From positions 1 to 58,758 of the forward strand of contig CAYWEX010000005.1 in assembly GCA_964457785.1 (NCBI GenBank): DNA of 58,758 bases, in the 5' to 3' direction. The notes beneath the pieces were generated by a model that saw only the letters and a program-made list of their open reading frames with translations, had not been told where the DNA came from and made no database searches. Both the position numbers and the translations under genes were made by a program. The stretch comes from Candidatus Woesearchaeota archaeon. GTDB lineage: Archaea > Nanobdellota > Nanobdellia > SCGC-AAA011-G17 > JACPIM01. Below, piece by piece: positions 52,873 through 53,647 of this stretch (its first letter is position 1; the number at the start of each line of letters is the position of its first letter).

Positions 52873-53403
52873 ATGGTTAATTTAACTTGGAATAAATCCA
52901 GTGAAGCTGAACTGGAAAAAGCCTATAGGTCAACTGACAATATAGGGGATAAAACTCCGTATTATGGCACTCCAATAGTTTACCGAGGAAATACTGGTTT
53001 ATTTAGCGGTGATGACGGGGTATTAAACTGGTTATTTGGAAACAGATATTTATTTTTAGTTATAGAAACTAAAAGAGAGAAAATGGGGGCTGGAGGCATT
53101 CATTATATTGGCTGCAAGCAAAATGTTTTTTCTTTCAGGTCCTCAAGACAAAACTATAATAGATCTGACGTAATCAGGGATTTTAATTTAATGCTTGAAT
53201 TAATTGGTGTGGGAAGAACAGAATTTTTCGAGTCTTTAGAAAATATTTTTGAGAAAGAGAGTACAGAACAAAAAACTTTAGAAAGTTTAATCAACATGTT
53301 AAATCCTAATGACTTTGGCAAAGCAGAAAAGGAATTAGCTAAACGACACAAAGAGGCATTAGCAGAAAAAACAAATAAAGATAAAAAAGAAATAACTGAA
53401 TAA
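52873..53403 (+). CDS. hypothetical protein
   Basis: 176-aa ORF. Confidence 0.65.
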   Translation: MVNLTWNKSSEAELEKAYRSTDNIGDKTPYYGTPIVYRGNTGLFSGDDGVLNWLFGNRYLFLVIETKREKMGAGGIHYIGCKQNVFSFRSSRQNYNRSDVIRDFNLMLELIGVGRTEFFESLENIFEKESTEQKTLESLINMLNPNDFGKAEKELAKRHKEALAEKTNKDKKEITE

Positions 53404-53437
53404 AGCTTTTTTCTAAAAAGCTTTACCAAAAAGGAGA
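53401..53437. repeat. palindromic repeat module overlapping a stop codon
   Basis: TAAAGCTTTTT..AAAAAGCTTTACCAAAAA. Confidence 0.75.
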
Positions 53438-53450
53438 AATTGTAAAAAAC

Positions 53451-53575
53451 TGGGCCCGATCAGATTTGAACTGACGACCTTTGGCTTTCTTAGATATGTA
53501 TGTTAGAGTGCCATATAAGACTTGCACAACTTCAATTGAAGTTACAATGCTCTAACCAGGCTAAGCTACGGGCCC
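53451..53575 (-). tRNA. tRNA-Ile(UAU) with two BHB introns (29/30 and 37/38)
   Basis: exons 53575-53545, 53521-53514, 53486-53451 give a 75-nt cloverleaf with anticodon TAT and A73; both introns form BHB motifs. Confidence 0.88.
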
Positions 53576-53647
53576 AAAGTTTTTGGAAAAGTTTAATCAA
53601 ACTAGACCAAAAGATATTAAGAAATGATTTTGGATTGTTTATAAAGT

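What the first reader, a model, noticed from the sequence alone, without database searches (positions are those of the whole stretch)
53451..53575. tRNA-Ile(UAU) hidden by two introns with mutually overlapping BHB motifs
Seen: intron 1 (53544-53522, 23 nt, position 29/30) has central helix GCAT/GTGC, bulges TG|T and AA|G, and an inner palindrome AACTTCAATTGAAGTT. Intron 2 (53513-53487, 27 nt, position 37/38) has central helix CTTA/TAAG. The middle exon is only 8 nt (GTCTTATA) and is used by both motifs; BHB 1 also needs D-stem bases. Known: most archaea read AUA with agmatidine-modified tRNA-Ile(CAU) made by TiaS; UAU isoacceptors are rare. Inference: splicing must be sequential with refolding, and this organism may have lost tiaS.
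Basis: partly seen in the sequence, partly recalled or inferred. Interest (0 to 1): 0.7.

Follow-up and report, generated by a model that had tools for sequence, protein, structure and literature searches.

The report
Two-intron isoleucine tRNA gene (UAU)
This is a real isoleucine tRNA gene of a tiny Woesearchaeota-type (DPANN) archaeon, interrupted by two short spliceable introns whose recognition structures overlap; it reads the very common AUA codon directly, which is the usual solution in this group of archaea and not a new one.

Summary
Window 53451-53575 (- strand) is a 125-nt tRNA gene (Rfam tRNA, 45.8 bits). Removing a 23-nt intron at position 29/30 and a 27-nt intron at 37/38 gives a perfect 75-nt cloverleaf with anticodon UAU, and my search found no other solution. 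Both introns sit in bulge-helix-bulge (BHB) motifs that share nucleotides 30-33 of the 8-nt middle exon. BHB 1 also uses the 3' strand of the D stem.

Seventeen orthologues in the same order keep the 37/38 intron, and ten keep the 29/30 intron. In those ten the BHB 1 core is 100% paired, with compensatory changes at 5 of 10 pairs.

The body matches this genome's tRNA-Ile(GAU) at 55 of 58 positions outside the anticodon arm. AUA makes up 39.5% of Ile codons. TiaS is absent from this genome, from 41 relatives and from 151 genomes of the phylum. One single-unit EndA and RtcB are encoded.

Folding energies favour BHB 1 first, but the splicing order is inferred only, because no RNA data could be reached.

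UAU tRNAs without TiaS, multi-intron tRNAs and single-unit EndA are already described for DPANN archaea. This is a new member of a known kind.

The parts
53451..53575 (-). pre-tRNA-Ile(UAU) gene, 125 nt; no CCA encoded
   Evidence: Rfam RF00005, 45.8 bits; single splice solution
53545..53575 (-). exon 1: tRNA positions 1-29 (acceptor 5' strand, D arm, A26, U27-G29)
   Evidence: identical in G001, G002 and G003
53522..53544 (-). intron 1, 23 nt, position 29/30, in a strict hBHBh' motif (outer helix 3 bp, central helix 4 bp, inner helix 6-7 bp)
   Evidence: core 100% paired with 5/10 compensatory pairs in 10 orthologues
53514..53521 (-). exon 2 (micro-exon GUCUUAUA): positions 30-37; shared by both BHB motifs
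53515..53517 (-). anticodon UAU (positions 34-36)
   Evidence: loop CUUAUAA
53487..53513 (-). intron 2, 27 nt, canonical position 37/38; central helix CUUA/UAAG, inner helix only 2 bp
   Evidence: present in 17/17 orthologues, central helix 100% paired
53451..53486 (-). exon 3: positions 38-73 (A38, anticodon stem 3' strand, variable loop AGGUC, T arm, acceptor 3' strand, A73)
   Evidence: T arm and acceptor identical to tRNA-Ile(GAU) at C6:29672-29807
53444..53449 (-). run of six T starting 2 nt after A73: likely archaeal transcription stop
   Evidence: read directly from the sequence; the role is inferred
53576..53601 (-). 5' leader TTTGATTAAACTTTTCCAAAAACTTT: A/T-rich, a possible TATA-like element, and a degenerate reverse copy of the genome's dispersed hairpin module
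   Evidence: similar to intron modules listed; the role was not tested
53401..53425 (.). hairpin TAAAGCTTTTT-AGA-AAAAAGCTTTA between the tRNA 3' end and the convergent ORF that ends at 53403; a copy of the dispersed repeat module
   Evidence: earlier notes e1-5243895 and e1-2788488

Best explanation
This is a functional gene for the AUA-reading isoleucine tRNA (anticodon UAU) of an AT-rich archaeon of about 0.8-0.9 Mb, labelled Woesearchaeota in public records and placed in the GTDB phylum Nanoarchaeota. That phylum has no TiaS, so it cannot make the agmatidine-modified CAU tRNA used by most archaea.

The primary transcript carries two protein-spliced introns. The genome's single-unit (alpha4-type) splicing endonuclease EndA cuts in the 3-nt bulges of each BHB motif, and RtcB joins the exons.

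The two complete motifs compete for nt 30-33, and BHB 1 also takes the 3' strand of the D stem, so the precursor has to change conformation between the two cuts. The most likely route has three steps. First, the transcript folds into the more stable BHB 1 conformer and loses the 29/30 intron. Second, the D stem and the full 5-bp anticodon stem form, which completes BHB 2. Third, the 37/38 intron is removed.

Shown here: gene, exon and intron borders, both motifs and their conservation, Ile-type body, high AUA use, absence of TiaS, presence of EndA and RtcB.

Inferred: actual cleavage, the order of the two splicing events, charging with isoleucine, and any modification of U34.
For: Rfam tRNA hit at 45.8 bits. 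Single splice solution with perfect stems, U33 and A37. 0 of 400 shuffles do as well.

Orthologues were found in 17 genomes of the order. 17/17 have the 37/38 intron. 10/17 have the 29/30 intron, every one with 4/4 central pairs and inner helices of 3-7 bp built from different sequences.

BHB 1 core: 100% of cells paired, 5 of 10 pairs changed on both sides, slid controls 20-46%. BHB 2 core: 94.8% paired, slid controls 9-53%.

Compared with the same-genus genome G002, exons are 73/75 identical and the two changes are a compensatory pair in the T stem, while the introns differ in length and in many positions.

Body is 55/58 identical to tRNA-Ile(GAU) outside the anticodon arm. AUA occurs at 36 per 1000 codons, 39.5% of Ile codons.

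TiaS FLD: 0/1, 0/41 and 0/151 genomes, with positive archaeal controls.

EndA is a single protein of about 196 aa with N- and C-terminal domains. No paralogue was found. There is one strong hit per genome in 16 of 17 relatives, including genomes assembled in 1-2 contigs. RtcB scores 543 bits.

Energies: BHB 1 conformer -34.6 (full motif) or -37.3 (central helix plus inner hairpin), BHB 2 conformer -25.0, MFE -37.6 kcal/mol. BHB 1 is the more stable conformer in 9 of 10 orthologues.

Literature: DPANN (ARMAN) archaea carry tRNA-Ile(UAU) and lack TiaS and tRNA-Ile(CAU) (PMC3239211). Alpha4-type EndA in DPANN goes with heavily disrupted tRNA genes (PMC5829648). In Cyanidioschyzon the anticodon-arm BHB is the last one processed (PMC3728597).
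Against: The outer helix of BHB 1 (AGA/UCU) is made of invariant exon bases, so covariation cannot test it. Without that helix the overlap with BHB 2 shrinks to G30, and a joint conformer exists at -26.2 kcal/mol.

The inner helix of BHB 2 is weak: 2 bp here and 71% paired across orthologues.

The genome is 86% complete and many of its tRNA genes are hard to find, so a hidden tRNA-Ile2(CAU) cannot be strictly excluded.

The energies are nearest-neighbour predictions for naked RNA.
Confidence: 0.85

Rival explanations
1. Same gene and same product, but no obligatory order. EndA needs only the central helix plus the inner hairpin of BHB 1 (an HBh'-like substrate). That reduced motif can coexist with BHB 2, so the two introns are removed independently or in random order without a large refolding step.
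For: A conformer holding BHB 1 (central helix plus inner hairpin) and BHB 2 together is allowed at -26.2 kcal/mol. BHB 2 is already detectable in the unspliced precursor with a 2-bp outer helix. After either intron is removed, the other motif lies within a few kcal/mol of the MFE. In G020 the BHB 2 conformer is slightly the more stable one. The outer helix of BHB 1 never varies, so it is untested.
Against: The joint conformer is about 11 kcal/mol above the MFE. G30 would have to sit in BHB 1's bulge and in BHB 2's outer helix at once. The enzyme is a single-unit, M. jannaschii-like EndA without the Tyr-His insertion seen in N. equitans and ARMAN-2, a type reported to need strict BHB motifs (PMC5829648).
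Confidence: 0.25
2. A decaying or non-functional tRNA gene copy whose apparent introns are insertions that are never removed.
For: No expression data. The gene is flanked on both sides by copies of a dispersed repeat.
Against: Exons are identical or change only by compensatory pairs across the genus, while introns diverge. BHB pairing is kept through compensatory changes across at least 6 families. No other AUA decoder was found although AUA is 39.5% of Ile codons and TiaS is absent. The cloverleaf is perfect.
Confidence: 0.03
3. A different mature product, for example ARAGORN's tRNA-Pyl(CUA) with a single 33-nt intron, or another anticodon produced from other splice sites.
For: ARAGORN with its intron option reports tRNA-Pyl(cta) i(37,33). 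Other chance BHB-like pairings exist in the precursor.
Against: None of the other BHB-like sites restores a cloverleaf; the search gives only the UAU solution. The micro-exon GUCUUAUA and the intron borders are conserved in all 17 orthologues. The body is Ile-type.
Confidence: 0.02

Closest known systems
pre-tRNA-Ile(UAU) of Candidatus Micrarchaeum (ARMAN-2) and of ARMAN-4/-5 (Fujishima et al. 2011, PMC3239211)
   Same: A DPANN archaeon with a genomically encoded UAU anticodon, a BHB intron at 37/38, no TiaS and no tRNA-Ile(CAU). Cleavage of the 37/38 hBHBh' motif was shown in vitro for ARMAN-2.
   Different: The ARMAN-2 substrate has one intron and is cut by a three-unit epsilon2 EndA. Here there is a second intron at 29/30 whose motif overlaps the first, and the enzyme is a single-unit (alpha4-type) EndA.
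tRNA-Ile(UAU) of Nanoarchaeum equitans and Korarchaeum cryptofilum (PMC6000648)
   Same: The rare archaeal UAU isoacceptor. In Korarchaeum it is nearly identical to the tRNA-Ile(GAU) of the same genome apart from the anticodon region and an intron, as found here (55/58).
   Different: Those genes were described with at most one intron. N. equitans uses a heterotetrameric (alpha-beta)2 EndA.
Multiple-intron pre-tRNAs of Crenarchaeota (Sugahara et al. 2007; Tocchini-Valentini et al. [quoted passage not shown] Both are cited in PMC3728597 and PMC3978253 but are not held in the library; their content is from my own knowledge.
   Same: Two or three BHB introns in one tRNA gene, non-canonical positions, and removal in sequence because one motif is complete only after another intron is gone.
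   Different: As I recall, those introns are nested and the organisms have (alpha-beta)2 EndA. Here the introns lie side by side around an 8-nt exon, both motifs can form alternately in the primary transcript, and the enzyme is alpha4-type.
Disrupted tRNA genes of Cyanidioschyzon merolae, including a multi-intron tRNA-Ile(UAU) (PMC3728597)
   Same: Several BHB motifs in one precursor. Processing order correlates with motif stability, and the anticodon-arm BHB is processed last, which matches the order predicted here.
   Different: A eukaryotic nuclear genome and a different endonuclease complex. In that case the motifs can fold independently.
Alpha4-type EndA of DPANN lineages associated with heavy tRNA gene disruption (Kaneta et al. 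2018, PMC5829648)
   Same: A single-unit EndA in a Woesearchaeota-type genome in which most tRNA genes carry non-canonical or multiple introns and standard tools find only an incomplete tRNA set.
   Different: That paper links broad specificity to an 'L3' insertion. In this EndA the stretch between the catalytic Tyr and His has the same length as in M. jannaschii, and lacks the insertions seen at that place in N. equitans and ARMAN-2.

Membership tests
Archaeal BHB (EndA-spliced) tRNA intron | 4-bp central helix flanked by two 3-nt bulges on opposite strands, with splice sites after the 2nd bulge base | tested here: met
   Intron 1: GCAU/GUGC with bulges UG|U and AA|G. Intron 2: CUUA/UAAG with bulges UA|U and AA|A. 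Kept in 10/10 and 17/17 orthologues respectively.
Archaeal BHB (EndA-spliced) tRNA intron | Outer (h) and inner (h') helices flank the motif (strict hBHBh') | tested here: met
   BHB 1: outer 3 bp, inner 6-7 bp. BHB 2: outer 2 bp (5 bp after intron 1 is removed), inner only 2 bp and 71% paired across orthologues, so it is borderline strict.
Archaeal BHB (EndA-spliced) tRNA intron | Removal restores a canonical cloverleaf | tested here: met
   75-nt product with 7/4/5/5 bp stems, U33, A37 and a 5-nt variable loop; the only solution found.
Archaeal BHB (EndA-spliced) tRNA intron | The genome encodes the splicing endonuclease and the RtcB ligase | tested here: met
   EndA at C13:20822-21511 (PF01974 at 103 bits, PF02778). 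RtcB at C3:62471-63784, 543 bits.
Archaeal BHB (EndA-spliced) tRNA intron | Cleavage and ligation observed in vivo or in vitro | not testable with these tools
tRNA-Ile(UAU), the AUA decoder of TiaS-less archaea | UAU anticodon in a 7-nt loop with U33 and a purine at 37 | tested here: met
   Loop CUUAUAA; the block GUCUUAUA is invariant in 17 orthologues.
tRNA-Ile(UAU), the AUA decoder of TiaS-less archaea | Isoleucine-type body (shared with tRNA-Ile(GAU), discriminator A73) | tested here: met
   55/58 identical to the GAU tRNA outside the anticodon arm, against 31/58 for the CAU tRNA.
tRNA-Ile(UAU), the AUA decoder of TiaS-less archaea | No TiaS | tested here: met
   PF08489: 0/1, 0/41 and 0/151 genomes; all four archaeal controls are positive.
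tRNA-Ile(UAU), the AUA decoder of TiaS-less archaea | No tRNA-Ile2(CAU) | tested here: inconclusive
   Only two CAU tRNAs were found: an initiator-like one at C1:14127-14283 and an elongator-like one at C13:13376-13450. Only two genes with the Ile-type T arm and acceptor occur in each of the four genomes of the genus. However, the genome is 86% complete and many tRNA genes are cryptic.
tRNA-Ile(UAU), the AUA decoder of TiaS-less archaea | Charged with isoleucine; reads AUA but not AUG | not testable with these tools
   Needs biochemistry.
Multiple-intron pre-tRNA with ordered splicing | One motif can form only after another intron has been removed | tested here: inconclusive
   The complete motifs exclude each other because they share nt 30-33, and BHB 2 gains its full 5-bp outer helix only after intron 1 is removed. 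Even so, each motif can form in the primary transcript. BHB 1 is favoured by about 8-9 kcal/mol here (full motifs; up to about 12 with the reduced BHB 1) and in 9/10 orthologues.
Alpha4-type (homotetrameric) EndA | A single gene of one unit (N-terminal plus catalytic C-terminal domain) and no second subunit gene | tested here: met
   About 196 aa with PF02778 and PF01974. No paralogue among the six-frame ORFs. One strong hit per genome in 16/17 relatives. Nearest solved structures are N. equitans alpha (3iey_A) and M. jannaschii alpha4 (1a79).
Alpha4-type (homotetrameric) EndA | DPANN 'L3' insertion near the catalytic triad (PMC5829648) | tested here: inconclusive
   The Tyr-to-His spacing equals that of M. 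jannaschii, while NEQ205 and ARMAN-2 carry insertions there. The exact position of L3 could only be taken from the paper's text.

The most novel reading that the evidence does not exclude
The two introns may be more than tolerated insertions; they could form a built-in maturation programme. The 29/30 intron sequesters the D-stem 3' strand and U31-U33. This keeps the transcript out of the cloverleaf and blocks the anticodon BHB until that intron is removed. The 37/38 intron is kept in all 17 UAU orthologues but in only about 2 of 6 GAU genes seen. It holds C32-A35 in a helix, which could allow an intron-dependent modification of U34, analogous to the intron-dependent pseudouridine 34/36 of eukaryotic tRNA-Ile(UAU) (from my own knowledge). 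Such a modification would stop this very heavily used tRNA from misreading AUG.
Probability: 0.12. Interest if true: 0.65.

Novelty: new member of a known kind. Interest (0 to 1): 0.3.

Why it matters
The gene supplies the only visible decoder for AUA, which accounts for 3.6% of all codons in this organism. Annotation that misses it leaves the genome apparently unable to read its second most frequent Ile codon.

The find adds a clean, covariation-supported example of two side-by-side BHB introns with competing structures in a lineage that has only a plain single-unit EndA. That makes it a convenient substrate for testing whether alpha4 enzymes impose a splicing order.

It also extends the absence of TiaS from N. 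equitans and ARMAN to every sampled genome of the phylum (0 of 151).

It does not change current understanding, because each ingredient has been described before.

Tried and rejected
- Default ARAGORN misses the gene. With its intron option it calls tRNA-Pyl(CUA). I rejected that call because it follows no BHB motif and does not restore a cloverleaf.
- My first genome-wide run of the BHB solver timed out. A restricted run worked, but it mis-solves genes whose central helix has a mismatch. tRNA-Ile(GAU) had to be solved by hand and tRNA-Arg(UCU) at C11:4010-4140 by eye.
- A genome-wide regex scan for CAU anticodon hairpins was mostly noise in this AT-rich genome. Its only useful result was the initiator-like gene.
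- Tocchini-Valentini 2009 (PMC2787110), Sugahara 2007 (PMC1852824) and Marck & Grosjean 2003 (PMC1370505) are not held. What I say about them is from memory and from citations in other papers.
- Whether position 29/30 has been reported before as an intron site could not be looked up.
- The flanking proteins gave no functional link: an AI-2E family transporter, an S49 peptidase and two ORFs without Pfam hits.
- The pseudogene and alternative-product readings were rejected; see the rival explanations.
- The pattern used to collect orthologues is narrow and hit only 16 of 240 genomes. It therefore says nothing about how many genomes of the order lack the gene.

Full report
**1. What is there**

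On the minus strand, window 53575-53451 reads GGGCCCGTAGCTTAGCCTGGTTAGAGCATTG / TAACTTCAATTGAAGTTGTGCAA / GTCTTATA / TGGCACTCTAACATACATATCTAAGAA / AGCCAAAGGTCGTCAGTTCAAATCTGATCGGGCCCA. The Rfam tRNA model matches exactly these coordinates at 45.8 bits (gathering score 29). It aligns the acceptor, D and T arms and the outer three pairs of the anticodon stem, and leaves 61 nt unaligned where 11 are expected. Default ARAGORN does not report the gene. With introns allowed it miscalls it tRNA-Pyl(CUA).

**2. The two introns**

I wrote a script that lists every BHB-like site, removes up to three of them recursively and tests the product against a cloverleaf. A site needed a 4-bp central helix between two 3-nt bulges plus an outer or inner helix. 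The script returns one solution.

| | Intron 1 | Intron 2 |
|---|---|---|
| Window coordinates | 53544-53522 | 53513-53487 |
| Length and position | 23 nt, 29/30 | 27 nt, 37/38 |
| Central helix | G24 C25 A26 U27 with GUGC | C32 U33 U34 A35 with UAAG |
| Bulges | U28 G29 \| U and A A \| G30 | U36 A37 \| U and A A \| A38 |
| Outer helix | A21 G22 A23 with U33 C32 U31 | G30-C40 and U31-G39 in the primary transcript; the full 5-bp anticodon stem once intron 1 is gone |
| Inner helix | hairpin AACUUC/GAAGUU | 2 bp |

The product is a 75-nt cloverleaf with full stems and anticodon loop CUUAUAA.

In 400 shuffles of the 61-nt insert, 113 gave some cloverleaf under my lax criteria but none gave one as good as the real sequence. 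The lax criteria alone therefore mean little. The perfect solution and the comparative data below carry the argument.

**3. The organism and its tRNA genes**

The window is contig C5 of an 802-kb assembly with 19 contigs, 29% G+C and 86% estimated completeness. Close relatives of its EndA gene lie in records titled Candidatus Woesearchaeota, Nanoarchaeota or Nanoarchaeia archaeon.

The gene is not an oddity within this genome. Most tRNA genes I could find carry one to three introns, mostly at non-canonical positions. Examples:
- tRNA-Ile(GAU), C6:29672-29807, with introns at 27/28 and 45/46.
- tRNA-Arg(UCU), C11:4010-4140, with three introns (solved by eye).
- tRNA-Gly(GCC), C12:13766-13939, 174 nt long.
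- An initiator-like tRNA, C1:14127-14283, interrupted in the acceptor/D region, the D arm and the T arm.

Only about 30 tRNA genes are visible. This fits the remark of Kaneta et al. (PMC5829648) that incomplete tRNA sets in new DPANN genomes point to unidentified disrupted genes.

**4. Comparative support**

Pattern searches in related genomes and extraction of the loci gave 17 orthologues across at least ten families of the order.
- All 17 have the block GUCUUAUA and an intron at 37/38. Bases -5 to -2 before the 3' splice site read UA(A/G)G, so they pair with C32-A35.
- Ten have an intron at exactly 29/30: this genome, three congeners, and members of five other families. Six have an uninterrupted anticodon stem there, and one has a D-loop intron instead.
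- In all ten, BHB 1 has 4 of 4 central pairs and an inner helix of 3-7 bp built from unrelated sequences, for example AACUUC/GAAGUU, GUCUU/AAGAC, AUCAAU/AUUGAU and AGU/ACU.

For BHB 1 the register was fixed only by the exon borders. On a gap-free core alignment built that way, 100% of cells form standard pairs and 5 of 10 pairs change on both sides (for example A26-U to G26-C). Sliding the partner strand gives 20-46% pairing.

For BHB 2 the core is 94.8% paired, against 9-53% when slid. Its central helix and the anticodon stem are 100% paired, with three covarying stem pairs, and the inner helix is weak at 71%. One caveat applies to BHB 2. I chose its 3' border with the condition that the central helix pairs, although A38 plus the 39-43 complement already fix that border.

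Within the genus, G002 has exons that are 73/75 identical to this genome's. The two changes are a compensatory pair in the T stem. Both introns differ in length and in many positions. That pattern indicates purifying selection on a working gene.

**5. Isoleucine identity and the need for this tRNA**

The spliced sequence is identical to the spliced tRNA-Ile(GAU) of the same genome at 55 of 58 positions outside the anticodon arm, including the whole acceptor stem, the T arm and A73. The CAU tRNA at C13:13376-13450 matches at only 31 of 58. The same relationship was described for Korarchaeum (PMC6000648).

In 453 long ORFs, AUA occurs 36.1 times per 1000 codons. That is 39.5% of Ile codons and more than twice the frequency of AUG.

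The TiaS-specific FLD domain (PF08489) gives no six-frame hit in this genome, in 41 genomes of the order or in 151 genomes of the phylum of about 90% completeness or more. All four archaeal control genomes score above the cut-off each time.

Each of the four genomes of the genus holds exactly two genes with the Ile-type T arm and acceptor, one UAU and one GAU. I found only two CAU tRNAs, an initiator-like one and an elongator-like one. A cryptic third cannot be excluded in an 86% complete genome.

**6. The machinery**

There is one EndA gene, at C13:20822-21511 on the minus strand. The protein is about 196 aa from the likely start and has the N-terminal and catalytic domains. It sits head to head with an RNase Z-like metallo-beta-lactamase gene (named from the HWHGDH motif, no family search was run).

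No paralogue exists among all six-frame ORFs. Sixteen of 17 relatives, including assemblies of one and two contigs, have exactly one strong hit in an open frame of 177-239 aa. This is the single-unit architecture that forms alpha4 homotetramers; the oligomeric state itself is inferred.

The nearest solved structures are the N. equitans catalytic subunit (3iey_A, E = 8e-37) and M. jannaschii alpha4 EndA (1a79, E = 1e-31). The stretch between the catalytic Tyr and His has the length seen in M. jannaschii and lacks the insertions that N. equitans and ARMAN-2 carry there.

Both introns of this gene form strict or nearly strict BHB motifs, so a strict enzyme should suffice for this substrate. RtcB is present at 543 bits.

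**7. How it probably works**

The complete BHB 1 needs A21-U27 and U31-U33. The cloverleaf D stem needs G22-C25, and BHB 2 needs G30-A35. The two complete motifs therefore exclude each other, and BHB 1 also excludes the D stem.

Constrained folding of the 125-nt transcript gives these energies in kcal/mol:

| Conformer | Energy |
|---|---|
| Full BHB 1 | -34.6 |
| BHB 1 central helix plus inner hairpin only | -37.3 |
| Unconstrained MFE | -37.6 |
| BHB 2 with the D stem | -25.0 |
| Reduced BHB 1 together with BHB 2 | -26.2 |

BHB 1 is the more stable conformer in 9 of 10 two-intron orthologues. After either intron is removed, the other motif lies within a few kcal/mol of the MFE.

I therefore favour removal of the 29/30 intron first, followed by formation of the D and anticodon stems and removal of the 37/38 intron. 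The same 'anticodon-arm motif last' order was observed experimentally in Cyanidioschyzon (PMC3728597). From my own knowledge, sequential removal has also been shown for crenarchaeal multi-intron pre-tRNAs (Tocchini-Valentini et al. 2009, not held). The order here is an inference from predicted energies, and nothing in the sequence makes it obligatory.

**8. Comparison with what is known**

- tRNA-Ile(UAU) together with loss of TiaS and of tRNA-Ile(CAU) was reported for the three ARMAN lineages, and the ARMAN-2 37/38 intron was cleaved in vitro (PMC3239211).
- UAU genes are known in N. equitans and Korarchaeum (PMC6000648).
- Alpha4-type EndA combined with heavy tRNA gene disruption in DPANN, including a Woesearchaeota genome, is described in PMC5829648.
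- Earlier notes of this scan on other genomes reached the same view of DPANN tRNA-Ile(UAU) genes. I read them after forming mine, and they are not independent evidence.

What is specific here is modest:
- a side-by-side 29/30 plus 37/38 pair around an 8-nt exon, with competing motifs;
- conservation of this arrangement in patches across an order;
- a host enzyme that looks like a plain alpha4 type.

**9. Verdict**

This is a new member of a known kind.

Noticed in passing
window 53401-53425 and 53576-53601; also inside tRNA introns at C1:67186-67300, C5:58642-58757, C9:15804-15916, C12:13766-13939, C14:5-114 and C6:9936-10048: A dispersed module of about 25-30 nt (hairpin AAGCTTTT-N3-AAAAGCTT or AAACTTTT-N3-AAAAGTTT, followed by AAKCAAAA) flanks this tRNA gene on both sides. 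It also forms the core of many tRNA introns at different positions in this genome. In relative G008 a copy sits inside the 37/38 intron of the UAU gene itself. It looks like a copy-prone element that survives inside tRNA genes because BHB splicing removes it.
   Followed up: partly
G000 C1:14127-14283 (+): An initiator-like tRNA(CAU) with anticodon arm UCGGG-CUCAUAA-CCCGA is interrupted right after the acceptor 5' strand, in the D arm and in the T arm. Neither ARAGORN nor the Rfam search found it.
   Followed up: partly
G000 C4:53886-53961 (-): An intron-less tRNA with anticodon loop UUAACGC, that is tRNA-Val(AAC) with A34. A34 tRNAs are almost absent from archaea (PMC6000648), though ARMAN-4/-5 have some (PMC3239211). 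GAC and UAC Val tRNAs are also present.
   Followed up: no
G000 C13:20822-21511 (-) and the neighbouring + strand ORF (L001 2036-3004): The single EndA gene lies head to head with an RNase Z-like gene (HWHGDH motif; no family search was run), so two tRNA-processing enzymes are paired. The EndA has a Lys-rich N-terminal extension of about 30 aa that is absent from M. jannaschii EndA.
   Followed up: partly
L006 (G008:C17:12756-12784), about 850 nt from the UAU gene of G008: An exact second copy of the last 29 nt of tRNA-Ile (T arm plus acceptor 3' strand) with no 5' half within 230 nt. It may be the duplicated attachment site of a small integrated element, or a stray 3' half.
   Followed up: no
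G000 C6:29672-29807 (+): tRNA-Ile(GAU) carries two non-canonical introns (27/28, 30 nt; 45/46, 31 nt). Its orthologues carry different intron sets: a D-loop repeat-module intron in G001 and G002, only the 27/28 intron in G003, and 37/38 introns in G008 and G039. Intron gain and loss is therefore fast even within a genus.
   Followed up: partly
G003: end of contig C26 and start of contig C5: The assembly of relative G003 breaks inside its tRNA-Ile(UAU) gene. One contig ends in the T loop and another begins at the micro-exon, and the two overlap.
   Followed up: no
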